A stretch of 64,000 bases of DNA from a virus: positions 1-64,000 of IMG/VR virus record IMGVR_UViG_3300031823_000004. One strand, given 5' to 3'. Positions 633 to 42,692 of the stretch are shown in pieces. A program made the position numbers and the translations under genes. The notes below the pieces were generated by a model. The model searched no databases and was not told where the DNA came from. It saw only the letters and a list, made by a program, of their open reading frames with translations. Each line of letters opens with the position of its first letter. The first letter of the stretch is position 1.

Positions 633-706
633 GCCTAAGTAGCTCACCGGTAGAGCACCGCTGCGGAACATAGCGGGGGAAGGACGTTCGATTCGTCCCT
701 TGGGCA
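633..706 (+). tRNA. tRNA or tRNA-like RNA, Phe(GAA)-like, with a non-canonical 9-nt anticodon loop
   Basis: Acceptor GCCTAAG/CTTGGGC + A73; D arm GCTC/GAGC; anticodon stem CCGCT/AGCGG with loop GCGGAACAT; T arm GGACG-TTCGATT-CGTCC; followed by CCT rather than CCA. Confidence 0.8.
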
Positions 707-707
707 C

Positions 708-760
708 CTACCCCCTATCGCCGCGGCAAGGTTTGTCCTGTGCGGGGTAGGGGTCTTTTT
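708..760 (+). terminator. Probable intrinsic terminator after the tRNA
   Basis: CTACCCC...GGGGTAG inverted repeat followed by TCTTTTT. Confidence 0.5.
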
Positions 761-802
761 CCTCCCTGCGCCTCTGGGGTTCTATGGGGCCGGATAGAAC
801 GC

Positions 803-3670: not shown

Positions 3671-4986
3671 CAGCGACAGACTACCGGCACCAGGAGACGG
3701 CGGCGGCGTTCCTTTCGGAGCGCCGTTTTGCCTATCTGGCCGATGAACCGGGCTTGGGCAAAACCCGGTCCGTTGTCCTGGCGGCCGATCGCCTGAAGAT
3801 CCGGCGCATCCTGGTGGCATGTCCAGGCGCTGTCCGGCGTGTCTGGGAAGCCGAGTTTGAACTGTGGCAGTCGATCGACCGGCAGATTGTGGTCGAGGAA
3901 GGCCGCCTGTCCGTGCCGCCGGGACGCTACGTGACGACCGTCGTCTCGCATGCAGCGCTAAGCCATCCGACGTCGATGGCGTACCTCTGTGCTGGCGCAC
4001 CGTATGACCTGCTGGTCGTTGACGAGGCGCACGAGTACCGGCGTTTCGATGCGGCGCGCACCAAGCTGCTGTTTGGCGCAGGCGGCCTCGCCGGGCTGGC
4101 CAGCCGCGTCTGGCTGGTGTCCGGCACGCCGGTGATCAATTCGGCAGGCGATCTCTACCCCCTGGTGTACGGCGCTCTGCGCTCGCCTATCGGGTGGATG
4201 GACTTTTGCTCGCATTACTGCGAGATGCGGCCCGACACCTTTTCCGGCGTCAAGCCGGTCGGCGTGCGCAACACGGCGGAACTCGCCGACGGGCTGCGGC
4301 CGCATCTGCTGCGGCGTACGATCGCCTCGCTTGGGATCAAGCTGCCGCCGCTGACGATCGAGCGCAGTGTCCTGCCGGTGAACCCGGTCGAAGTAGCCCA
4401 GGCGATGGCCGGGCTGGAGGACTGGACACCGCAACGCCTGGTGCTGGCGCTGGCCGATACGGACGAGTTGCGCGATGCGGCGATAGCCCGGGTGCGGCGC
4501 GCTCTGGGCATCGCCAAGGCACCGGCTGCGGCTGCGTATATCGAGTGGCTGCTGCATCTGGGCGAGGGGCCCGTCGTGGCGTTTTTCCAGCACACGGACG
4601 TCAGGAAAGAGGTGTACGCCCGGCTGCACTGGGTCGGCCGGCGCGTGTCCTGGATCGACGGCACAGTAACCAAGATACAGTTGCAGGCGGCGCAGGATTG
4701 GTTCCGCGCCGGACGGCTCGACGTGCTGTTGGTGCAAACCCAGGCTGGCGGCCAGGGGCTGACGCTGACCCGGTCGCACCGCGGAGTGATGATCGAACTG
4801 CCGTGGACGTCAACCGCAGTGGAACAGGCAGTGAAAAGGATCCACCGGATATCCCAGACAGTCGCCTGTGCCGCCGACATATTGCTCGCGAAAGACTGCT
4901 GGCTCGACGACGTGCTGGCGATGGTGGTGGAGCGAAAGCGGCGCGCTGGCGACGAATTGCTGGCACTGCTAACTTCTAATGCCTAG
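3667..4986 (+). CDS. SNF2-family (SF2) helicase
   Basis: LADEPGLGKT (motif I), VVDEAH (II), SGTP (III), GGQGLTLT and QAVKRIHRISQ (V/VI); GTGA overlap with upstream stop. Confidence 0.9.
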   Translation: MTATDYRHQETAAAFLSERRFAYLADEPGLGKTRSVVLAADRLKIRRILVACPGAVRRVWEAEFELWQSIDRQIVVEEGRLSVPPGRYVTTVVSHAALSHPTSMAYLCAGAPYDLLVVDEAHEYRRFDAARTKLLFGAGGLAGLASRVWLVSGTPVINSAGDLYPLVYGALRSPIGWMDFCSHYCEMRPDTFSGVKPVGVRNTAELADGLRPHLLRRTIASLGIKLPPLTIERSVLPVNPVEVAQAMAGLEDWTPQRLVLALADTDELRDAAIARVRRALGIAKAPAAAAYIEWLLHLGEGPVVAFFQHTDVRKEVYARLHWVGRRVSWIDGTVTKIQLQAAQDWFRAGRLDVLLVQTQAGGQGLTLTRSHRGVMIELPWTSTAVEQAVKRIHRISQTVACAADILLAKDCWLDDVLAMVVERKRRAGDELLALLTSNA

Positions 4987-10532: not shown

Positions 10533-10724
10533 TTGTCGAGCAACGCCCGCAGAGAGGAACGCCGCAGAGAGAACGAAGCGCAATACGAGCGCGAGTGCAG
10601 ACAGAGGCAGCAGGCGAAAACGACGTTCGACGAGAAATTCGGTGCGCTTGAAGCAGCGCTGGAAAGGCTTGGGCTGGATCCGTGGTTGTTGCATGAGTGG
10701 GTTTCAGAGGACCGACCGATATGA
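10533..10724 (+). CDS. Small charged hypothetical protein, TTG start
   Basis: AGGAG 7 nt before TTG; ATGA overlap with the next gene. Confidence 0.6.
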   Translation: MSSNARREERRRENEAQYERECRQRQQAKTTFDEKFGALEAALERLGLDPWLLHEWVSEDRPI

Positions 10725-18267: not shown

Positions 18268-18546
18268 GTGCGCAAGCAGGTCGCTAAGCTGGTACAGAGT
18301 GGGTGCGATCTCGGTCTGCGCCAAATCCACGTCGTATTCGAATGCCTGGACAACCCGCGTACGGTCAAGCAGCTATCTGAAAGCGGCAACGGGAAATTCG
18401 ACAAACCGGCAGTGTCCCGGGCGGTGCAGCGGCTGCGCGAATTGGGCTATGTCGAGCGGCGCGAGCACCCCGATGACCGGCGCAGCGTCCTGGTGTCCCT
18501 GACGCCGGCAGGCAGAACCTTCGCCAAGAATATCGCCAAGGAATAG
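18268..18546 (+). CDS. MarR-family winged-helix regulator
   Basis: KPAVSRAVQRL.ELGYVER..HPDDRRSVLVSLTPAG. Confidence 0.88.
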   Translation: MRKQVAKLVQSGCDLGLRQIHVVFECLDNPRTVKQLSESGNGKFDKPAVSRAVQRLRELGYVERREHPDDRRSVLVSLTPAGRTFAKNIAKE

Positions 18547-18547
18547 C

Positions 18548-19039
18548 CTACGGGCCGCCAGCGGCCATTCCGATCCGGGCCAGACGGTACATCCAGCCGC
18601 CACCGTTGTCTGGCCACTCGACATCGTCGACGTACCCCAGCGCACGTTGTTCCAGAACGCGGGCAGTGAGTTCGTTCGTGTCGGTGTCGGCCTGTACAGC
18701 GCCCATCGTCTGGGGGCCGATGATCCCATCGTCATCAACACCTAGCGCGCGCTGAAGCGCTTCCGCGCCGCCGCCGTTAACGATGCCGTCGAATACCGCC
18801 AGGCAGAGTGGCCAGGGCATCTCGTCGCAATGGTTCGGCAACCACATGTTGGTGCGGTACCAGGCTGTTGCTGTCGCCTGCGTGAGGTTCGCCACGTCAA
18901 CATCAGGATGCTGCACCTGCGAAATGCCGAATTTGGTCAAACCGCCGTCCGGGTCCGTGGTCAAATTGTCGCTCTCGGGCCCCTCCAGGTCGAAGATCAG
19001 CAGCATGATCGAGGGGAAGCGATCGACAGTGGTGCTCAT
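18548..19039 (-). CDS. Endolysin, glycoside hydrolase family 108 with PG-binding segment
   Basis: LEG....DPDGGLTKFGI, FDGIVNGG, LQRALGV..DGIIGPQT, GWMYR. Confidence 0.88.
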   Translation of the reverse strand: MSTTVDRFPSIMLLIFDLEGPESDNLTTDPDGGLTKFGISQVQHPDVDVANLTQATATAWYRTNMWLPNHCDEMPWPLCLAVFDGIVNGGGAEALQRALGVDDDGIIGPQTMGAVQADTDTNELTARVLEQRALGYVDDVEWPDNGGGWMYRLARIGMAAGGP

Positions 19040-19236
19040 GAGTCTGATCCTTTGTCGTGGGCTTGATTGAGCCGGTGGTTGTCGAGAATGCGCCGGATCA
19101 GGTCGGCAACTGAAATCCCAAGGGTCCGGGCTTCGACTCGGAGATAGGCGTCCTGCGGCTGGGTCACCAGGAGAGAATAGCGCTTTTTGGTGCTAGTTCG
19201 GTGTGATTTCGCCGCTTCATGTATCCTGGATGACAT
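19036..19236 (-). CDS. Ribbon-helix-helix (CopG-like) DNA-binding protein
   Basis: RYSLLVT...YL..EARTLGISVADLIRRIL. Confidence 0.7.
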   Translation of the reverse strand: MSSRIHEAAKSHRTSTKKRYSLLVTQPQDAYLRVEARTLGISVADLIRRILDNHRLNQAHDKGSDS

Positions 19237-19327
19237 CTGCCTACCACTTCATTGCATCAGCCTTGCGGCAGCCCTATACTATATTCGCGCTCACTAGATG
19301 CAAGCTCCGTGATGGGGAGGGCTTCCG

Positions 19328-20284
19328 GTGTCCGATACATACGCCCACGATCGCCAGCACGACGCTGACATAGCCAGGTTGCTGGTCGAGGTTGCTGAAA
19401 TCCGGTCGCGTATAAACGCGCAGGGCACCTCCAATATCCCGATTCCCGATCCATCCGAGATCACTGCGCGGGCGATTGCCACAGCCAAAGAAGAATTGCG
19501 CGGTGAGTTCGACGACAAGCTGAAAGCGATAGGCGACCTGTCCGCCTATCGCTACGACGAACGGACGCGCGTACTGGAGGCAACCCGGCAATCCATAGCC
19601 CAACAGTACGATTCACTGTCAACCATGACGGATCAGAAACTGCATGCGGTCGACTTGCAGTTTGCGGCTGTCGACATGCGCTTTTCGGAGCGCGATGTAC
19701 GCGTCAAGATGACACAGGAAACAACGATGTCCGCGCTTAGCACAGCGCTGGCGTCTCAAAAGGAACTTGCTACACTGGTGCAGGGGACAACCACCGAAGC
19801 GATTCAGAAAAGTGAAACAGCGTTTACCACGCGTATCAGTGCGCTGGAAACACTGCTGAATGCGACAAAAGACGGTTTCACTGATCGGATGGCCGAATTA
19901 AACAATCGGATGAACCGCACGGAGGGCGGCCAAACGGGAGCGCAGATCGGCACGCACAACATACTCGGTATCATTGGCGGGATAGTTGGAATAATCAGCT
20001 TGCTTCTGTCGATAGCGATTTTCGCGCTCGGCTCCGATCATCTTCCCGCTGGCATTGCGCCGGTTGGCATTGACTCAAAGCGCGTCGATGACCTTACAGC
20101 CCGGCTGAACGCCTTGTCGCAGCGATTGGATTCTATACCGACATCACCAGCGGCAGCAGCACCGACATACGCCTCTCCAACTTACGTTTTACCGCCGCAG
20201 GCTGCACCAACTTACGTGTCACCCTTCGCGTTGCCGCCACAGGCTACACCGGTGCAGCCAACACCAGCACAGCCTAGCAAATAA
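19328..20284 (+). CDS. Coiled-coil membrane protein with one TM helix and Pro/Ala-rich tail; lysis-region protein
   Basis: GGGGAGG RBS; heptad-like helix; ILGIIGGIVGIISLLLSIAIFAL. Confidence 0.7.
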   Translation: MSDTYAHDRQHDADIARLLVEVAEIRSRINAQGTSNIPIPDPSEITARAIATAKEELRGEFDDKLKAIGDLSAYRYDERTRVLEATRQSIAQQYDSLSTMTDQKLHAVDLQFAAVDMRFSERDVRVKMTQETTMSALSTALASQKELATLVQGTTTEAIQKSETAFTTRISALETLLNATKDGFTDRMAELNNRMNRTEGGQTGAQIGTHNILGIIGGIVGIISLLLSIAIFALGSDHLPAGIAPVGIDSKRVDDLTARLNALSQRLDSIPTSPAAAAPTYASPTYVLPPQAAPTYVSPFALPPQATPVQPTPAQPSK

Positions 20285-20297
20285 GGAGTACGCCGTT

Positions 20298-20480
20298 ATG
20301 CAAGAGCGCGCAATCGTCTGGTTCGTCATCGCATGGCTCGCCTGCTGGGATATCGACCTGCTGATCGTCATCGCCCGCGGGCCGCTGCTGATCGACCCGA
20401 TACTGAAATTCATTGTCGTCACGATCGCCCTGGTCATGGTGTTGTGGAGCATGATGCGAAATCACTGGCTTTTCCCTTGA
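20298..20480 (+). CDS. Small two-TM membrane protein (holin candidate)
   Basis: AAGGAG RBS; two hydrophobic segments. Confidence 0.6.
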   Translation: MQERAIVWFVIAWLACWDIDLLIVIARGPLLIDPILKFIVVTIALVMVLWSMMRNHWLFP

Positions 20481-20505
20481 CACTCGCATTCAGAGTGATT
20501 ACTTA
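20477..20505 (+). promoter_or_regulatory. Promoter of the small RNA
   Basis: TTGACA-N17-TACTTA. Confidence 0.6.
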
Positions 20506-20506
20506 T

Positions 20507-20611
20507 GGCATCGCGAAGCCTAGGCAGCTTCGCAACGGAATGCTTGGATAGTTTCCTCCCTGACTAAACACCTTACGCAGCCCCTTCCTCCCTGGGTGGG
20601 GCTGCTTTTTT
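20507..20611 (+). ncRNA. ~105-nt three-hairpin sRNA with two anti-Shine-Dalgarno motifs (cuckoo/alpha-r14/AbcR-like architecture)
   Basis: GCGAAGC/GCTTCGC hairpin; TAGTT-TCCTCCCT-GACTA hairpin; GCAGCCCC/GGGGCTGC terminator + T6; TTCCTCCCTG at 20553 and 20585. Confidence 0.75.
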
Positions 20612-20673
20612 GTGTGCATTGCGCGTCAATCGTGATGCGTCTATGATGGCGTATTGCGGCAAGGGAGACGGCC

Positions 20674-20841
20674 ATGCCATTCGACGCGTGTCCTGACAAC
20701 TGGGACGAAAAGCCTGAACGGACGCCCGAAGAACCCGAAACCGAAGGGTTCTTTTTACAGATTTTCCTGGCAACCTGCGTCATTCTCGCGATGCTGCCGT
20801 TCGCGCTGATGATCGCGTCGCCGCTAAGACTGCTGCCGTGA
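20674..20841 (+). CDS. 55-aa membrane peptide
   Basis: GGGAG RBS; acidic N-terminus plus one TM; GTGA overlap. Confidence 0.5.
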   Translation: MPFDACPDNWDEKPERTPEEPETEGFFLQIFLATCVILAMLPFALMIASPLRLLP

Positions 20842-21548
20842 GCAAGCGCACTGTTCTCGCCGTCAGCGTCCTGGCGCTGATTTACGGCAGCACCGTCGCC
20901 ATGTTCGTCCTGTCGAGACCGGACGTCATGGCGGACACCGCACCGCCACCGGCTGTCGAAGTACCGGTACCCGCTGTCCCGGCTCCAGCGGCACCATCCC
21001 AGCAGCAGATCGACGCGCTGAAACAGGCGTACCAGGCGGCCGTCGCAGCGAAAGCGGCGCAGGCACCGGTTGTCGCCGTGGCTGCGCCGAACAGCACCTT
21101 GCTCGACGTCACCACCGTGCTCCAGCCTGTGCTGGAGATGATCGCGCTGGTGATCGCCGGGCTGATCACACGCTATGTGCCGCGCGCCCTCGATGCGATG
21201 GAAAAGCGCACCGGCATTCAACTGACCGACCAGCAGCGCGCCAAGGTGCTGGGGGCAGTGCAGACTGCGGCGGGCATAGTCGAGACCGATATCGACCGGA
21301 AAGCCATGTCGCTGGCACAGGTCCATGTGGACGACCCGGTCATCCGGGCACAGGCAGCCGCAGTGATTGCGGCTGTACCGCAGGCAGCGGCAGCCCTTGG
21401 CGTAACCGAGGCAGGCGTGGCCAGGATGATCGTCGGCGCAGCGAACACCGGCCCACGCGCCGCTCCAGTACAGCCCCAGCCAGCACAGGCCGCACCAAAC
21501 CCTTTAGCCGGGGCGCCGGGCGGCTCGTTCGTGAACCCGCCACTGTAA
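20838..21548 (+). CDS. Membrane protein with LL-H-holin-like domain
   Basis: Two TM segments, then GIQLTDQQRAKVLGAVQTAAG helical domain. Confidence 0.55.
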   Translation: MSKRTVLAVSVLALIYGSTVAMFVLSRPDVMADTAPPPAVEVPVPAVPAPAAPSQQQIDALKQAYQAAVAAKAAQAPVVAVAAPNSTLLDVTTVLQPVLEMIALVIAGLITRYVPRALDAMEKRTGIQLTDQQRAKVLGAVQTAAGIVETDIDRKAMSLAQVHVDDPVIRAQAAAVIAAVPQAAAALGVTEAGVARMIVGAANTGPRAAPVQPQPAQAAPNPLAGAPGGSFVNPPL

Positions 21549-21562
21549 AGCAGGAGACGCCT

Positions 21563-21937
21563 ATGTCAGATTTGGCCGCAAGTGGAGGCGGTGGCGCTGC
21601 CCCTAGCACAGTCATGGTTTCAGTTGGCGGTGGCGGCGGCAGTGCCGATAGTGGTGGAAGTGTCGGTGGTGGTGGCAGTGGCGGCGGCTGGGGTACTGGT
21701 GTCGTCGGTGGCGGGCCGCTGACTGCTACGCCATCGGCCGTGCCTGTTTCAACCCCAGTCACTCACGCTGACGCGGTGGCGGCGATCTTCACACGCCTGA
21801 ATGCGCTCAGTGAAGCGACGGCGGCCGAGATTGCCAGTATCAAGGCGGATGTCAGCAAGCTGCCGACACTGCTTGACCAGAACCTCGCAGCCGGGTTTGC
21901 GTCACTGCGCAGCAGCCTGACTGCGAAAAGCGGCTGA
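21563..21937 (+). CDS. Gly-rich hypothetical protein
   Basis: AGGAG RBS; Gly-rich N-terminus, amphipathic C-terminal helix. Confidence 0.6.
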   Translation: MSDLAASGGGGAAPSTVMVSVGGGGGSADSGGSVGGGGSGGGWGTGVVGGGPLTATPSAVPVSTPVTHADAVAAIFTRLNALSEATAAEIASIKADVSKLPTLLDQNLAAGFASLRSSLTAKSG

Positions 21938-21965
21938 CCCAGCGTCTCTTGAAAGGATCCCAGAC

Positions 21966-22349
21966 ATGACCATCCCCCTGTCCACAATCATTGCCGACAC
22001 CCAGCTAATCGCGGGTGCGGTGCAGACGGCAACATCCACGCTGTCTCTGTTTCCGGGCATCAATCCGACGATGGTTGCCAACGTGAACACGGCCGTCAGC
22101 GCGTTGCAGGCGACGCTGGCGGCGTTGCAGACCGCGACAACGGCGACCGCGGCGCAGCCGCTGATCCAGCAGGTCGAGGCGGCCATCAACGCGATCGTCG
22201 GCGCCGTCGCGGGGATCCCAGGCCTGCCGCTGGAAGTCACGCTGGCTTTGGACGCGGCTATCATCCTGCTGCCCATTATCGAGGCGGCGGTCAATCAGAT
22301 CGTCACCCCTACGCCAGCGGCAGCGCGCGCATCACTGTCCGTGCTATAA
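21966..22349 (+). CDS. Hydrophobic Ala/Thr-rich helical protein
   Basis: AAGGA RBS; almost no charged residues. Confidence 0.6.
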   Translation: MTIPLSTIIADTQLIAGAVQTATSTLSLFPGINPTMVANVNTAVSALQATLAALQTATTATAAQPLIQQVEAAINAIVGAVAGIPGLPLEVTLALDAAIILLPIIEAAVNQIVTPTPAAARASLSVL

Positions 22350-22386
22350 GCCTCGATAGCCAGCTTACGGCTTAACTGGAGGAACG

Positions 22387-23427
22387 ATGCATAACTATCT
22401 GAAGCGCCACCCGTCGCCCCCGACGTCGTGGACGATCCCGGAACTCTGTGCAGCGTACGACCTGCCGATAAAGCAGGTGAACCACGCCATCATCGCCATC
22501 GTGGAACTTGGCGGCGGCTACCGTCTGTCCGACGTTGCACAGGCCTTCGCCACAATGCATCTGCCGGCGCCGAACATCGTCGATGTCTCGGTCGACGGCA
22601 CCACGAACAATCCTGGCAGGAGCGATGCCGACGGCGAGGTGGCGCTCGATATCCAGATTGCCGGTGCGGTGAATGCGTACATGACCAGCGCGCCTGCCGA
22701 GATCCGCATGTACTGGGCGCGGGATATCGGCGCCGCGGTCGCGAAGGCGGCAGCCGATGGCTGCGACGTTTGCTCGATCTCATGGGGCGCGGACGAAGCG
22801 GAGTGGGGTCTCGCCGCGGCGACAGCGATGGAAACCATCGCCGCGCAGGCCACGGCGATGGGCATGGTGGTGTTCGCCGCGGCAGGCGACAACGACTCCA
22901 GCGACGGCGGGCCCACCCCGGCCAATGTGGATTGTCCGGGCTCCTGTCCGCACGTCATCTGCTGCGGCGGCACCAGCAAGCCCAAGGGTGGCGAGGAAAC
23001 CGTCTGGAACGACAACCCCGGCCAAACCAACGGTGAAGGCACCGGCGGCGGCTTCTCGACCTTGTTCGTCAAGCAGGCGTGGCAGATTGGCATTCCGGCA
23101 GCACCCACCGGGCTCGGCCGCATGGTGCCGGACGTTGCGGCAAACGCCGATCCGCGCACCGGTTATGAGATCGTGCTCGACGGACAGGTGCAGATTTTCG
23201 GCGGCACCTCGGCGGTGGCACCGTTCTGGGCTGGGATGGTTGCAGCCTGCGGCAGCAAGCTGGGGTTCATCACGCCGGACTTCTACAAGAACCCCCGTGC
23301 GTTCGTCGATATCGTCACGGGCAGCAACGGTGCGTACGACGCACAGGTCGGGCCCGACGCATGCACAGGCATGGGCGTGCCGGTCGGCGTTTCCATCGAG
23401 TCGGTCATCGACACCGGAACAGTATGA
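22387..23427 (+). CDS. Peptidase S53 (sedolisin/kumamolisin-like), catalytic domain only
   Basis: IAIVELGGG, EVALD (Glu/Asp), SISWG, AAGD (oxyanion Asp), RMVPDVAANADP, GGTSAVAP (Ser), DACTGMGVP; GGAGG RBS. Confidence 0.92.
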   Translation: MHNYLKRHPSPPTSWTIPELCAAYDLPIKQVNHAIIAIVELGGGYRLSDVAQAFATMHLPAPNIVDVSVDGTTNNPGRSDADGEVALDIQIAGAVNAYMTSAPAEIRMYWARDIGAAVAKAAADGCDVCSISWGADEAEWGLAAATAMETIAAQATAMGMVVFAAAGDNDSSDGGPTPANVDCPGSCPHVICCGGTSKPKGGEETVWNDNPGQTNGEGTGGGFSTLFVKQAWQIGIPAAPTGLGRMVPDVAANADPRTGYEIVLDGQVQIFGGTSAVAPFWAGMVAACGSKLGFITPDFYKNPRAFVDIVTGSNGAYDAQVGPDACTGMGVPVGVSIESVIDTGTV

Positions 23428-31110: not shown

Positions 31111-34100
31111 CCTCGGACAGCAAGGCTATCTTCTGGCATCCGGTCCTCACGGGACCTGGCCACCCATAACGTCGCCTGGATCGCGGCGCCATCCACCACC
31201 GTATGTGCCGCCACCGCCACCACCGATAACCATTCAGTCGGTCACGCTGTCGAACGCGTCTTTTGTCAGCGGCACAAGCAACGCCACAGTCGGCACCATA
31301 AACGTGGCGATGAATATCGGTTCGTTTACCGGATCACTGTCGCTGTCCGGCACGAACGCGTCAAGTTTCCAGATTGTCGGAAACACACTGGAGACTGTCG
31401 GCAGCCTGTCTGCCGGAACGTACTCGATCGTCATCACCGCCACGCAAGGCAGCGCGGTAAACTCGCCTGTCTCTACATCGCCACTGACCATTACAGGCAG
31501 CGCGGCTGCGCCAGCTTTCTCGTCCATCACGCTGTCAAACAACACGTTCATCGACACCACGGCGAACGCGACCGTCGGCACCATAGCGGTGACGATGACC
31601 AATGGCGCATTCAGCGGAACTCTGGCGGTCGGCGGCACGAATGCAGCCGATTTCCAGATAGTCGGCACAACTCTGGAAACCATCGGCACCCTTGCCGGCG
31701 GAACGTACTCGATCGTCATTACCGGCACGCAGGCCGGTGCGTCGAACTCGCCGTTTTCCACGTCACCGCTGACGATCACCGGTGCTGCGGCGCCGCCACC
31801 ACCGCTGTCGTTCCAGTCCATCACGCTGTCAAACAACACGTTCGTCGACACCGTGAACAACGCGACGGTCGGCACGATCTCTGTGGTGATGAATGGTGGC
31901 ACGTTCAGCGGCACGCTGTCGCTGTCGGGCACGAACGCGTCCAGCTTCCGCATCGTCGGAACCACCCTGCAAACCTTCGGCGTTCTCCCCGCCGGAACGT
32001 ACTCGGTCATCATCACCGGCACGCAATCCGGCGCGTCCAATTCGCCGTTCTCCACCCTGGCCCAGACGATCACCGGCAGCGCGGCCGCGGCCGCGGCTAC
32101 GACGTGGAACCCGTCTGACCAGTCCGGCATGACGCTGTCCAACGGCAACCTGACGGCGACAACGAACAGCGCGGCGCAGGCTGGCGTTCGCTCGACGTCC
32201 GCCATGCCAGGCGTGCCAAGCTATTTCGAAATCACCCTGACAACCTCTGGCTCCAGTGAAGTCGTCGGTATCGCGGACTCCTCGTGGGTGGAGACAGCCG
32301 CTGCCGGGCTGGGCGGCGACAACAATGGCATAGGCCTGCTGGAAACCGGTGCGGTCCATCTGAACAACGTCGCGGTCGGGTCCGCCATGCCAGCCTGGAC
32401 CGCAGCAACGGTGCTGGGCGTCGCTGTCAACCCCACCACGAAAAAGATATTCTTCACCTATAACGGAACCACATGGGATGCCACCGGATCCGGCGACAAC
32501 CCAGCGACGAATACCGGCGGCTATTCGTGGGCCACTGCGGTGTCCGGATCCTATTTCATCGCCTTCGGTGCGCTGGGCTCCTCCGTGACCAGCGGTGTGT
32601 CGGGCAGTCAGAACAGCGGTGCGTCACAGCCCGTCGTAAGCGGCCCGGCGACCGCGACAGTCGGTGTCAGCACCACGCTGGCGATTACCGGGCTGACCCT
32701 TTCCGACACCAATCAGCCGCTGGGCGGCACCTGTGCATTGAATGTGGACTGCACGTCCGGCATCTGCACGCTGAACACAGTGGTCACGGGCGGATCGGCT
32801 ACCGGCAACGGTACCAACTCAATATCGGTATCGGATACCTTCCCCAACTGCCAAACCGACATCGCGTCGCTGACCTATACCGCGTCATCGTCTACCGGCA
32901 CTGATTCTATTTTCGTGCAGTTGTGGGACCAGCTAGGCCTGAACAATTCGATCAATATCGCGGTCACCATAGAAGCAGGCAGCGTCGGCATCAAAGTGCT
33001 GAATGCTGGCGAACAGACGTTTGCCTACACGGTTCCATCCGGCTATACGGCGTGGGATAGCTTCGCCCCAGCACCGCCGACCAATCTGACCGGCGCAGCA
33101 GGCAGCACGTCAGTTGCACTTACCTGGACAGCATCTGCTGTCGGCACTGCACCGCTCACATACACGGTGCAGAACAGGATTACCGGCAGTTCCACTTGGG
33201 CCAACGTCGTAACTGGGCTGACCACAGAATCGTATAACGTCACCGGTCTGACGACCCGCACCTCGTACGATTTCCAGGTGATCGCCGTCAACGCGCTTGG
33301 CAACGCTGTCACGCCTTTTATCACCGTTGCCACGACAGCCGCAGGCAATGTCGTCGGCGACGCAACCGGCACACAGGCTGGCCGCATTGCCGATTTCCTG
33401 GAAACCATCGGCGTCAACGGGTTCTTTAACAATCAGGACGGCGCCATCGGTTACAACGATTATCCCAACACGCCGACCAACGCCCAGATAGCTGCGGGCT
33501 ATGTGACCGGGTTGCAGTACCTCACGGCCAATACCGGCATGGGATTGACCTGCCGCATCTACACAGACGGCACCAGTACGACGACCGAGAACGACCAGGT
33601 CAACATCTGCACCATCATCCAGGCGTCCATGCCGAATGTCAGGTGGACGTCGTGCTGGAGTTGGACCAACGCCGCCACACAGGCTGTCGTCAGCGGGCTC
33701 ATATCCGCAGGCATCCTGGCTTTTGCTGAAGGCGTGAACGAGCCCAATCCCGGCGGCAACACGAACGAGCCGGTTGCCGACTGCCTCACGCAGCAAGCGT
33801 TTGTCTGGAGCACCTGGAACGCAACCCAGCCGGTCGCCGCTCCATCGTGCGTCGATAACGGATCGAACACCTATGCGGCCGACTACTATGGCAGCAACCT
33901 GTCGACAGTGGCGGGTGAATGCACACTATGGAACGGCCACAACTATCCGAACGGCGGCGCACCGTCCAACGACATCTACCGCCGCACCCTGATGATCGGC
34001 TCGAATATCGGCTTCCCTGCCAACGGCGTGGTCACCGAGTTTCATCCGCTGCTGTACAACACCTCGGCGGCACAGTCTGCGGGTGAGACCATCAGCGGCT

Positions 34101-42161: not shown

Positions 42162-42692
42162 TTAAGCAGTCAAGCCGATCGTCCCGGCCGCCGCACCAGC
42201 CGAGGCTATCGCGGATGCAACGCTGATCGCGTTTTCACCGGTGTTCAGGACACTCACGCCGACGTTGTTCAGCACGTCCATCGCAAGGAACGAGTAGGTG
42301 TCGCGCACCGGCGCATTTGCCGGTATTGACTCGGCGAAATTCTGGCACTTGCAATCGACATAGGTGAACACAACGGTTTGCGTCAGGCCGTCGTACACGT
42401 GGAAATCGAAGACGTTCCCCGCCAGGATGTAGTTCAGATTCTGGCCGCCCTGGAGCAAATTGACCCCCTGCACCGTGAGCGCAAAGGTATCGAGATTGAT
42501 CTGCGGCGAGACGCGAAGCTGCTGGACTTCCTGCGGCAGCGCCGATCCGATGCCGTAAAGCTGTTCGGTGCCGAACGGGAACTGATGGCCTGTCGTCTGG
42601 GCAAAAAAGATGACCTGATCGCCGAGCATCGCGGCGACCTGGTTACCGTTACGGACGTTATTCTTGACGACTTGCGGTGTGAAACCCGGCAT
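42162..42692 (-). CDS. Tail tube protein
   Basis: Directly after sheath; GTEQLYGIGSALPQE motif; 176 aa. Confidence 0.85.
   Translation of the reverse strand: MPGFTPQVVKNNVRNGNQVAAMLGDQVIFFAQTTGHQFPFGTEQLYGIGSALPQEVQQLRVSPQINLDTFALTVQGVNLLQGGQNLNYILAGNVFDFHVYDGLTQTVVFTYVDCKCQNFAESIPANAPVRDTYSFLAMDVLNNVGVSVLNTGENAISVASAIASAGAAAGTIGLTA

What the first reader, a model, noticed from the sequence alone, without database searches (positions are those of the whole stretch)
20477..20611. Phage-encoded sRNA with twin anti-Shine-Dalgarno motifs
Seen: a self-contained unit of TTGACA promoter, three hairpins and a T6 terminator. The identical 10-mer TTCCTCCCTG sits at the apex of hairpins 2 and 3 (20553, 20585) and is complementary to AGGGAGGAA. 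Known: alphaproteobacterial cuckoo/alpha-r14/CcsR and AbcR sRNAs display CCUCC(U)CCC anti-SD loops to repress many mRNAs. Inference: the phage carries a host-style trans-acting sRNA to repress host transcripts or time its own lysis genes; neighbours have GGGGAGG (19328), AGGGAG (20674) and GGAGGAA (22387) RBSs. Its terminator also splits the lysis region.
Basis: partly seen in the sequence, partly recalled or inferred. Interest (0 to 1): 0.7.

Follow-up and report, generated by a model that had tools for sequence, protein, structure and literature searches.

The report
Divergent MmgR-type small RNA in phage
A soil phage carries a roughly 100-letter regulatory RNA gene that looks like a diverged copy of a small RNA which alphaproteobacteria use to block ribosome-binding sites, here with the blocking motif present twice, so the phage may be able to switch a host gene set on its own terms.

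Summary
The unit is in the sequence as described. TTGACA lies at 20477-82, a strong 5' hairpin at 20513-33, TTCCTCCCTG at 20553 and 20585, and a terminator plus T6 at 20577-20611. The 10-mer is expected 0.09 times in the 81-kb record and occurs 3 times.

The closest family is alpha-r8 (Rfam RF00519 suhB/mmgR; MmgR, SisA-D), not cuckoo/alpha-r14 or AbcR. Its published hallmark is a single-stranded UUUCCUCCCU followed by a Rho-independent terminator (PMC12559287). That 10-mer is present exactly at 20552-61.

The Rfam model gives only 21.5 bits against a cut-off of 41, so formal membership is not met. A complete phage genome (L362) carries an RNA that passes at 45.2 bits and shares 22 of 24 core letters with the window.

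Canonical alpha-r8 genes are common in phage DNA. They occur in at least 120 IMG/VR contigs, in 5 of 6 complete records sampled, and in two isolated phages.

The putative promoter ranks 8th of 162,614 sites against the phage's own promoter class.

No expression data, host or syntenic relative was available.

This scan has noted phage-borne MmgR-type RNAs before, on at least 20 other genomes.

Verdict: a probable trans-acting anti-Shine-Dalgarno sRNA, a twin-seed variant of a known kind.

The parts
20477..20482 (+). -35 hexamer TTGACA; its TGA is the stop codon of the upstream 60-aa ORF
   Evidence: The 33-nt site starting here ranks 8th of 162,614 positions against a matrix built from 8 other promoters of this phage.
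20500..20505 (+). -10 candidate TACTTA, 17 nt after the -35; predicted start near 20511-20513 (inferred)
   Evidence: It matches 5 of 6 letters of the TACATA -10 of the phage promoters at 77139(-) and 76590(-). The generic sigma-70 scan did not call it.
20513..20533 (+). 5' hairpin: 7-bp stem GCGAAGC/GCTTCGC with a 7-nt loop
   Evidence: present in the minimum-energy fold, the centroid and all 12 listed suboptimal folds.
20544..20567 (+). alpha-r8-like core CTTGGATAGTTTCCTCCCTGACTA; seed 1 (UUUCCUCCCU) is 20552-20561
   Evidence: The 10-mer is the family hallmark in PMC12559287. 22 of 24 letters are shared with L362, which scores 45.2 bits on RF00519. UCCCU is at least 0.94 unpaired.
20577..20605 (+). 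terminator hairpin (8-bp GC stem plus 3 inner pairs) carrying seed 2, TTCCTCCCTG (20585-20594), at its top
   Evidence: A second CCTCC/CTCCC downstream of the core recurs in 14 of 112 distinct viral alpha-r8 downstream sequences.
20606..20611 (+). T6 tail of the intrinsic terminator; also the end of the upstream 19328-20480 transcription unit
20298..20480 (+). upstream 60-aa ORF with no family match; I read it as a hydrophobic, holin-like membrane protein (my judgement from the DNA, the protein was not printed)
   Evidence: GC3 0.80.
20619..20647 (+). candidate promoter of the downstream genes (TTGCGC, 17 nt, TATGAT), read by eye
   Evidence: Letters. The scan tool did not call it. Inference only.
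20674..20841 (+). downstream 55-aa ORF behind AGGGAG; first gene after the unit
758..767 (+). third exact UUUCCUCCCU in the record, 50 nt after a tRNA-Phe-like gene and just after a hairpin plus U5; possibly a second, degenerate module
   Evidence: The fold is not better than shuffles (z = 0.22) and no RF00519 hit was found there.

Best explanation
The stretch is a gene for a small RNA of about 100 nt (roughly 20511-20611). It is probably transcribed by the host RNA polymerase from its own TTGACA promoter and ended by its own intrinsic terminator.

It is a diverged relative of the alphaproteobacterial alpha-r8 family (MmgR of Sinorhizobium, SisA-D of Caulobacter). It keeps a 5' hairpin, the family's single-stranded seed UUUCCUCCCU, and a Rho-independent terminator with a U tail that would suit Hfq. 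Unlike the standard form, it repeats the seed (UUCCUCCCUG) at the top of the terminator hairpin.

By analogy with SisA, the seed would pair with purine-rich ribosome-binding regions (AGGGAGGAAA-like) of host mRNAs and block their translation. The phage could then impose or exaggerate the host's alpha-r8 response independently of the host's own control.

Shown here:
- the anatomy
- the non-random repeat
- the predicted accessibility of the seeds
- the exact hallmark motif
- a bridging homologue that passes the family threshold
- the wide occurrence of alpha-r8 genes in phage genomes
- the promoter's likeness to this phage's other promoters

Inferred:
- transcription and the RNA's ends
- Hfq dependence
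- action in trans, and its targets
- an alphaproteobacterial host
For: (1) Anatomy and statistics: (z = -3.4; 3 copies against 0.089 expected).

(2) PMC12559287 (passages read) defines alpha-r8 RNAs by a Rho-independent terminator plus an internal single-stranded 5'-UUUCCUCCCU-3' downstream of a weak hairpin. The window has this 10-mer exactly at 20552-61.

(3) Of the 7 matches that cmscan of 20350-20750 listed at E up to 10, two of the three best-scoring were alphaproteobacterial anti-SD sRNAs: suhB/mmgR (21.5 bits, E 0.031) and ar14 (22.4 bits, E 0.032). The highest bit score went to an unrelated leader, rnk_pseudo (23.4 bits, E 0.082).

(4) A pattern drawn from the window and L358 found 3 IMG/VR stretches. 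All three have a 5' hairpin, the core and a terminator. L362, from a 57.7-kb record with direct terminal repeats, scores 45.2 bits on RF00519, above the cut-off. It shares 22 of 24 core letters with the window, including the same 1-nt deletion relative to the family consensus.

(5) Whole-record searches of 10 phages sharing neighbouring proteins with this one gave alpha-r8-like sub-threshold units in two of them: 25.5 bits in G161 and 18.7 bits in G165. Both have the same hairpin-core-terminator layout.

(6) Canonical alpha-r8 genes are widespread in phage DNA.
- 14 of 15 sampled sources are over the cut-off. These include Bradyrhizobium phage ppBeUSDA76-1 and Microcystis phage Mwe-JY08, both at 62.8 bits and both in mostly unannotated gaps.
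- 36 of 42 records are over the cut-off, including 5 of 6 records with direct terminal repeats, with hits well inside the genomes.

(7) A second CCUCC-type motif in or near the terminator recurs in 14 of 112 distinct viral copies, against 1 of 30 bacterial ones.

(8) The promoter ranks 8th of 162,614 sites against a matrix of 8 other promoters of this phage. L361 has TTGACA at the same distance from its 5' hairpin.

(9) SisA represses TonB-dependent receptor mRNAs through this 10-mer; its pairing with the sponge RNA CrfA is Hfq-mediated (passages).
Against: - No transcript evidence exists. Only two DNA runs of soil metagenomes hold the stretch, one of them probably the source.
- The family's curated threshold is not met: 21.5 against 41 bits, and no hit at E <= 0.001 in the whole record.
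- A sequence-only profile of 31 bacterial alpha-r8 copies finds the unit as the top hit in the phage, but at E = 0.36.
- My own covariance model (3 base pairs only) gives 13.7 bits, E = 0.077.
- Scores of 20-27 bits occur several times per alphaproteobacterial genome.
- The family's weak GCCC...GGGC hairpin next to the seed is not kept.
- The -10 is weak and the generic scan did not call the promoter.
- The terminator is needed in any case to end the upstream operon.
- No syntenic relative could be examined. The 9 loci sharing the 236-aa neighbour have no such unit within 3 kb. The only relative of the peptidase gene is cut 917 nt upstream.
- No phage target stands out.
- The host is unknown. 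The best isolate match of a replication protein is 28.8% identity to a Rhizobium phage.
- Many provirus-class hits lie near record ends, so some of the 120 may be host flank or sit next to integration sites.
Confidence: 0.62

Rival explanations
1. It is only the 3' untranslated end and intrinsic terminator of the upstream operon (19328-20480). The pyrimidine-rich motifs are a decaying relic of a captured alpha-r8 gene, or act only in cis on ribosome-binding sites of the same transcript. There is no separate RNA gene and no trans targets.
For: The terminator ends the upstream + strand genes, and TTGACA overlaps their stop codon. The -10 is weak and the generic scan did not call it. The family threshold is not met. 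Folded as part of the longer mRNA, seed 1 is mostly paired, with mean unpaired probability 0.29. There are no expression data. Cis-acting anti-SD 3' ends are known in other bacteria (recalled, not checked here).
Against: Both exact copies of the 10-mer are kept although the surrounding family features have drifted, which points to selection on the seed. The promoter ranks 8th of 162,614 against the phage's own promoter class. A plain terminator does not need 95 nt of structured leader with a 5' hairpin (z = -3.4). Related phage units have the same stand-alone layout, one with TTGACA at the same distance.
Confidence: 0.2
2. The RNA is made but acts as a decoy rather than a repressor. By displaying two copies of the alpha-r8 seed, it soaks up a host sponge RNA of the CrfA type, or Hfq, and so changes the activity of the host's own alpha-r8 RNAs.
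For: In Caulobacter the seed of SisA-D is the site bound by the sponge CrfA (passages). Two seeds on one RNA would double that capacity. No specific mRNA target could be found in the phage.
Against: There is no evidence for any sponge in the unknown host. Known family members act as repressors of mRNAs. This cannot be separated from the main explanation by sequence alone.
Confidence: 0.08
3. It is a transcription attenuator or leader for the downstream membrane-protein genes (20674 onward), possibly read through a 20-codon ORF (20505-20567) that ends 10 nt before the terminator.
For: A 20-aa ORF spans the hairpin and seed 1. A terminator lies between a promoter and the next gene. The best-scoring Rfam match, though far below its threshold, was a leader family (rnk_pseudo, 23.4 bits against 55).
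Against: The ORF's ATG overlaps the -10 hexamer and has no ribosome-binding site, so it would lie upstream of the predicted start. No alternative anti-terminator pairing appears among the suboptimal folds. The downstream gene has its own plausible promoter at 20619-20647 (read by eye). Homologous units elsewhere stand in other contexts.
Confidence: 0.05
4. The repeats work at the DNA level: three direct copies of a 10-bp site for a phage or host DNA-binding protein, two of them 32 bp apart upstream of the 20674 operon and one upstream of the first long gene.
For: All three exact copies lie in non-coding DNA on the same strand, upstream of gene starts. The spacing of 32 bp is about three helical turns.
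Against: The motif equals the RNA seed of a known sRNA family and sits in predicted loops of a terminated transcript. The homologous units in other phages carry one copy only. No partial copies mark other promoters.
Confidence: 0.03

Closest known systems
alpha-r8 sRNA family (Rfam RF00519 suhB/mmgR): MmgR of Sinorhizobium meliloti, SisA-D of Caulobacter crescentus
   Same: It has the exact single-stranded 10-mer UUUCCUCCCU. The flanking letters G before it and GACU after it are also shared, as is CUUGG upstream. It ends in a Rho-independent terminator with a U tail, has a 5' stem-loop, and is about 80-100 nt long.
   Different: It scores 21.5 bits against a cut-off of 41. The weak GCCC...GGGC hairpin beside the seed is lost. 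The linker to the terminator is 15 nt longer. A second seed sits in the terminator loop. It is encoded by a phage, not next to the host formyl-glutamate amidohydrolase gene.
Phage-borne alpha-r8 copies (e.g. Bradyrhizobium phage ppBeUSDA76-1, IMG/VR records with terminal repeats, L362)
   Same: It is carried inside tailed-phage genomes in unannotated gaps, near packaging or lysis genes, and has the same core. A minority of these copies also have a CCUCC-type motif in the terminator.
   Different: Those copies mostly pass the Rfam cut-off at 45-77 bits. The window RNA is the most diverged form seen here, and it repeats the full 10-mer rather than a 5-6-mer.
Cuckoo / alpha-r14 family (RSs0680a-d = CcsR1-4 by recall, NfeR1; Rfam RF02344)
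   Same: It has several hairpins presenting a C/U-rich anti-Shine-Dalgarno motif in loops. The family is alphaproteobacterial and is described as Hfq-bound (passages of PMC4615179).
   Different: The defining loop motif CCUCCUCCC is absent. Only one robust motif-bearing hairpin is present. The score is 22.4 bits against 58.8.
C-rich-loop repressor RNAs of Gram-positives (RNAIII UCCC loops, as cited in PMC4615179)
   Same: The working principle is the same: an exposed UCCC(U) loop pairs with ribosome-binding sites.
   Different: There is no sequence or structural relationship, and the host range differs.
Known phage-encoded sRNAs of enterobacteria (AsxR, AgvB; others only seen in search listings)
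   Same: They are phage genes for small RNAs that interfere with host post-transcriptional networks (passage in PMC12559287; listings).
   Different: Those act as sponges or have unrelated sequences. None was described in the passages and abstracts I saw as a copy of a conserved host seed-bearing family in Alphaproteobacteria.

Membership tests
alpha-r8 (RF00519 suhB/mmgR) | Internal single-stranded 10-mer 5'-UUUCCUCCCU-3' (PMC12559287) | tested here: met
   Exact at 20552-20561. Unpaired probability is 0.95 for UCCCU, 0.56 for the preceding UCC and 0.13-0.20 for the first two U.
alpha-r8 (RF00519 suhB/mmgR) | Rho-independent terminator 3' of the 10-mer | tested here: met
   An 8-bp GC stem plus U6 at 20577-20611, present in every listed fold.
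alpha-r8 (RF00519 suhB/mmgR) | Weak hairpin directly upstream of the 10-mer (GCCC-loop-GGGC in 31 bacterial and 120 viral copies) | tested here: not met
   Only CUUGG of it is kept. Predicted pairings there are weak and alternative. A strong hairpin lies further 5'.
alpha-r8 (RF00519 suhB/mmgR) | Rfam covariance model at or above the gathering score (41 bits) | tested here: not met
   21.5 bits, no hit at gathering in the window and none at E <= 0.001 in the record. The bridging relative L362 scores 45.2 bits.
alpha-r8 (RF00519 suhB/mmgR) | Sequence homology to family members beyond the seed | tested here: inconclusive
   nhmmer profile of 31 bacterial copies: top hit in the phage, but E = 0.36. 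Own model: 13.7 bits, E = 0.077. 22 of 24 core letters shared with L362, though L362 was found with a pattern that fixes 19 of them.
alpha-r8 (RF00519 suhB/mmgR) | Hfq-associated (Hfq-mediated pairing reported for SisA-CrfA) trans repression of mRNAs through the 10-mer | not testable with these tools
   Needs expression in a host; no RNA run holds the stretch.
cuckoo / alpha-r14 (RF02344) | 2 to 4 adjacent hairpins, each with CCUCCUCCC in the loop (PMC4615179) | tested here: not met
   The motif here is UUCCUCCCUG; CCUCCUCCC does not occur in the unit. Hairpin 2 is marginal.
cuckoo / alpha-r14 (RF02344) | Rfam model at or above 58.8 bits | tested here: not met
   22.4 bits; no hit in the whole record, and the tool's own control also found nothing anywhere.
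AbcR-type sRNAs | Match to the curated Rfam model | tested here: not met
   No such family among the 7 matches at E up to 10 in 20350-20750.
plain intrinsic terminator | GC-rich hairpin followed by a U run at the end of a transcription unit | tested here: met
   This feature is shared with the sRNA reading and does not discriminate between them.

The most novel reading that the evidence does not exclude
Phages of Alphaproteobacteria widely carry their own copies of the host's alpha-r8 (MmgR/SisA) seed RNA as an unannotated 'auxiliary regulatory RNA'. This phage has evolved a twin-seed version, under a promoter of the phage's own class, that escapes the host's control (sponge and nutrient-sensing promoter). 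It would shut down the host alpha-r8 regulon, for example TonB-dependent outer-membrane receptors and carbon-storage genes. That could exclude superinfecting phages or redirect resources during infection.
Probability: 0.3. Interest if true: 0.75.

Novelty: new variant of a known kind. Interest (0 to 1): 0.55.

Why it matters
Small RNAs encoded by phages are known mainly from enterobacteria. I found no paper describing a phage copy of the alpha-r8/MmgR family. The searches were and 98 of the open library. Lagares et al. 2016, which treats the family's lateral transfer, was not readable here and may bear on this.

If the RNA is active, it gives a simple, testable case of a virus taking over a conserved host post-transcriptional regulon with a captured and then remodelled regulator.

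The twin-seed form shows what selection keeps (the seed and the terminator) and what it lets go (the host-type hairpin and control region).

It also shows that curated thresholds miss diverged phage members, so annotation pipelines leave these genes blank. Both isolate phage records checked here had no RNA gene annotated at the site; one record's hypothetical CDS overlaps its 3' part.

Tried and rejected
Searches for relatives of the unit that found nothing useful:
- blastn of 18500-22400 against 50,697 phage records: no match.
- Twin-10-mer pattern in IMG/VR: 13 stretches, all coding repeats or unrelated.
A few real-looking multi-hairpin RNAs turned up in Rhodobacteraceae and Cohaesibacter, none reaching any Rfam cut-off.
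- Twin pattern in metagenome contigs: 51 stretches, none homologous except a second copy of the Rhodobacteraceae RNA.

Synteny:
- The relative of the 318-aa neighbour (L015) and 9 relatives of the 236-aa neighbour have no such unit within the fetched flanks.
- The relative of the peptidase is cut 917 nt upstream, and its weak RF00519 hit is not an RNA unit.

Expression: no RNA holder listed. Two DNA runs of soil metagenomes were found, one probably the source. Laying them showed nothing about the RNA.

Targets: duplex scans and exact-complement scans of the 81-kb record gave no ribosome-binding site with more than 8-9 contiguous complementary letters. A 9-of-10 complement at 10550 lies inside a coding frame.

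Host: the best isolate match of a replication nuclease was 28.8% identity (Rhizobium phage), which is not informative.

Own covariance model R1: RNAalifold found only 3 base pairs because MAFFT did not align the terminators, so the model was weak.

Neighbourhood of the bridging units: PHROGs named only a small terminase about 1 kb from L363's unit.

Third motif copy at 758-767: its fold is not better than shuffles, and it has no Rfam hit.

Supplementary files of papers were not opened. Family alignments in the supplements of PMC12559287 and PMC4615179 could bear on the membership rows.

Papers, and how much of each I saw:
- PMC12559287, PMC4615179, PMC7143759 and PMC5913331: passages found by term only.
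- PMC12197685 and the other phage-sRNA papers: search listing and abstract start only.
- Lagares et al. 2016: not seen.
Full report
WHAT IS THERE

The window is the first 64 kb of an 81,340-b IMG/VR virus record. The record is linear, 87% complete by CheckV, and comes from a soil metagenome. It encodes phage replication proteins: an SNF2 helicase, a DUF2800 nuclease, an Enc34-type SSB and a family A polymerase. It also encodes tail-fibre domains and a GH108 endolysin at 18548-19039 on the minus strand.

The finding lies in a 193-nt non-coding gap. The gap runs from the stop of a 60-aa ORF, which I read as hydrophobic and holin-like (20298-20480), to the ATG of a 55-aa ORF (20674).

- TTGACA at 20477-82
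- a 7-bp hairpin at 20513-33
- TTCCTCCCTG at 20553-62 and 20585-94
- an 8-bp GC-rich hairpin at 20577-20605
- T6 at 20606-11

The 104-nt RNA folds at -38.1 kcal/mol, against -27.5 +/- 3.1 for shuffles (z = -3.4; 1 of 200 shuffles as good). The 5' hairpin and the terminator are stable in all 12 listed suboptimal folds. The middle 'hairpin 2' is one of two near-equal weak alternatives. UCCCU of both motif copies is at least 0.94 unpaired in the stand-alone RNA.

The 10-mer is expected 0.089 times in the whole record on both strands. It occurs three times, all on the + strand and all outside clear coding sequence (P = 1.1e-4). A second copy within 60 nt has probability 3.5e-5.

WHICH FAMILY

No Rfam family reaches its gathering score anywhere in the window. 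A permissive scan of 20350-20750 listed seven matches at E up to 10. The three best by bit score are an unrelated leader family (rnk_pseudo, 23.4 bits against 55) and two alphaproteobacterial anti-Shine-Dalgarno sRNAs. These are ar14 (22.4 bits, cut-off 58.8) and suhB/mmgR, RF00519 (21.5 bits, cut-off 41).

The RF00519 alignment matched GUUUCCUCCCU letter for letter. The Caulobacter paper PMC12559287 (passages read) describes the alpha-r8 family, which includes MmgR and SisA-D. Its members share a Rho-independent terminator and an internal single-stranded 5'-UUUCCUCCCU-3' downstream of a weak hairpin. The paper shows that SisA uses this 10-mer to repress mRNAs for TonB-dependent receptors, and that its pairing with the sponge RNA CrfA is Hfq-mediated.

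The window carries this exact 10-mer at 20552-61, and a 9-of-10 copy in the terminator loop.

That motif is absent here.

IS IT A MEMBER OR ONLY A LOOK-ALIKE?

Evidence against membership:
- The curated score is not met.
- A sequence-only profile of 31 bacterial copies finds the unit as the best hit in the phage, but at E = 0.36.
- My own covariance model was poor, with only 3 base pairs. It gave 13.7 bits, E = 0.077.
- Scores of 20-27 bits occur several times per alphaproteobacterial genome.

In a sample of 151 genomes of the class, 64 have a hit over the cut-off and 90 have a hit at E <= 0.001. Paralogue scores run continuously from 77 down to 27 bits, so the cut-off cuts through real diversity.

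Evidence for relationship:
- Whole-record searches of ten phages that share neighbouring proteins with this one gave sub-threshold units in two of them: 25.5 bits in G161 and 18.7 bits in G165. Both have the layout 5' hairpin, UUGGAC-GUUUCC..., terminator.
- A pattern combining the window and G161 found three IMG/VR stretches. All three have the same layout.
- One of these, L362, lies at 33,307-33,391 of a 57.7-kb record with direct terminal repeats. It scores 45.2 bits, above the cut-off.
- L362 shares 22 of 24 core letters with the window (CTTGGA.GTTTCCTCCCTGACTA), including the same one-letter deletion relative to the family consensus.
- The pattern itself fixed 19 of those letters, so this count is partly by construction. 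The surrounding sRNA architecture of all three hits is not.

I therefore read the window RNA as a diverged derivative of the alpha-r8 lineage. I do not file it as a member by the curated test.

PHAGES CARRY THIS FAMILY OFTEN

Nearly all of the printed stretches show the weak hairpin, the seed and a terminator-like hairpin; a few are cut by a contig end or lack a clear one.

Of 15 sources scanned with Rfam, 14 pass the cut-off at 47-68 bits; ppBdUSDA122-1 (L356) does not. Two of the 14 are isolated phages:
- Bradyrhizobium phage ppBeUSDA76-1: 62.8 bits, mostly in an unannotated gap just before the HNH-terminase genes, with the last 2 nt overlapping the HNH endonuclease CDS.
- Microcystis phage Mwe-JY08: 62.8 bits, after an endolysin cluster, with the 3' part overlapped by an annotated hypothetical CDS on the opposite strand.

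I then searched 42 whole virus records: 40 taken from the pattern hits, plus L361 and L362.
- 36 are over the cut-off.
- Of the six records with direct terminal repeats, five are over it, with hits well inside the genomes.
- Caveat: these records were chosen because they hold the core. Several provirus-class hits lie within 3 kb of a record end, so some may be host flank.

A second CCUCC-type motif downstream of the core occurs in 14 of 112 distinct viral copies, several of them in the terminator loop. It occurs in 1 of 30 bacterial copies. The twin-seed design is therefore a recurrent minority form, which this phage carries to a full 10-mer repeat.

This scan's notebook holds 23 earlier notes of phage-borne MmgR-type RNAs in at least 20 other genomes. 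I reached the alpha-r8 reading before seeing them, and I did not test those loci.

IS IT TRANSCRIBED ON ITS OWN?

The generic sigma-70 scan did not call the site, because the -10 (TACTTA) is poor.

The phage has a clear promoter class of its own, clustered at 76.5-80.6 kb and also in front of the tRNA-like gene: TTGACA, 17 nt, then TATATA or TACATA. I built a matrix from eight of these promoters, leaving out the site under test. It ranks position 20477 8th of 162,614 positions, above two of the training sites.

L361 has TTGACA at the same distance from its 5' hairpin.

The predicted start (about 20511) puts the strong hairpin at the very 5' end. It leaves the ATG of a 20-codon ORF (20505-20567) upstream of the transcript.

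A plausible separate promoter for the downstream genes lies at 20619-20647 (read by eye). An independent gene is therefore likely, but it is not shown. The same terminator would also end the upstream operon, and the RNA could arise as a 3' end of that mRNA. In that longer context seed 1 is mostly paired.

HOW IT MOST LIKELY WORKS

By analogy with SisA and MmgR, the exposed seeds pair with AGGGAGGAAA-like ribosome-binding regions, helped by Hfq bound at the U tail, and block translation.

No site in the phage's own 81 kb has more than 8-9 contiguous complementary letters at a gene start. The neighbours' ribosome-binding sites pair no better than any Shine-Dalgarno sequence. Host mRNAs are therefore the more likely targets.

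A phage copy under a phage-class promoter would impose the alpha-r8 response regardless of the host's nutrient sensing or sponge control. Shutting down TonB-dependent receptors or carbon-storage genes is an attractive consequence, but it is unproven.

Rival readings are given with their odds in the Rival explanations section: a passive terminator or cis-acting 3' end, a decoy for a host sponge, an attenuator, and DNA-level sites.

LIMITS

- The host is unknown. There are hints only: a homologue of a neighbouring protein is named from a Rhodopila sp. genome, and the best isolate match is a Rhizobium phage at 28.8% identity.
- No RNA data exist.
- No syntenic relative could be read.

VERDICT

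This is a real, non-random, well-folded unit. It is probably a trans-acting anti-Shine-Dalgarno sRNA gene derived from the alpha-r8 family, in a twin-seed form that falls below the family's curated threshold. It is a new variant of a known kind. Its interest is moderate, and is raised by the evidence that alpha-r8 RNAs are common, unannotated cargo of alphaproteobacterial phages.

Noticed in passing
window 633-708 and 597-625: ARAGORN calls a tRNA-Phe (GAA) behind its own TTGACT-17-TATACA promoter. No Rfam tRNA model reaches its threshold; the best is tRNA-Sec at 16.8 bits. By my reading of the letters, the anticodon loop has G at position 33 and C at position 37, both unusual. It may be a degenerate or tRNA-like element.
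   Followed up: partly
window 709-801: Right after that tRNA-like gene come a long hairpin plus U5, then the third exact UUUCCUCCCU (758-767), then a perfect 7-bp hairpin (780-801) without a U tail. This may be a second, degenerate alpha-r8-type module released from the tRNA transcript. An earlier scan note describes an MmgR-type RNA fused to a tRNA in another phage.
   Followed up: partly
G000:C1 76590-80622 (beyond the window's end): This is a cluster of at least six near-identical strong promoters (TTGACA, 17 nt, TATATA/TACATA, followed by GGG) on both strands. Some form overlapping inverted pairs (78406+ with 78445-). It is likely the early control region, with operator-like palindromes in the spacers.
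   Followed up: partly
L357 (Microcystis phage Mwe-JY08, PP395640.1 about 42319-42402): A phage recorded as infecting a cyanobacterium carries a canonical alphaproteobacterial alpha-r8 RNA at 62.8 bits, partly under a 'hypothetical protein' annotation on the other strand. Either the host assignment or the family's range deserves a look.
   Followed up: no
G200:C1 8231-8622; also G166, G190, G205: Some virus records hold two or three alpha-r8 copies in tandem, with scores of 56.5, 43.2 and 39.1 bits in G200.
   Followed up: no
L099 (Rhodobacteraceae MAG JALSKC010000004.1), about 4150-4300; same RNA in L182: This is a three-hairpin RNA with the window's 10-mer TTCCTCCCTG in each loop and a terminator. 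It is cuckoo-like in design but reaches no Rfam gathering score.
   Followed up: partly
window 20481-20497: A 5-bp inverted repeat (CACTC...GAGTG) fills the spacer of the sRNA promoter. The scan tool listed it as terminator-like, but it could be an operator.
   Followed up: no
window 20838-21548: The 236-aa protein downstream has a conserved ~110-residue membrane-anchored domain. This domain is found in 51 other clusters, mostly soil metagenomes and one Rhodopila genome. No Pfam or PHROG family matches it.
   Followed up: partly
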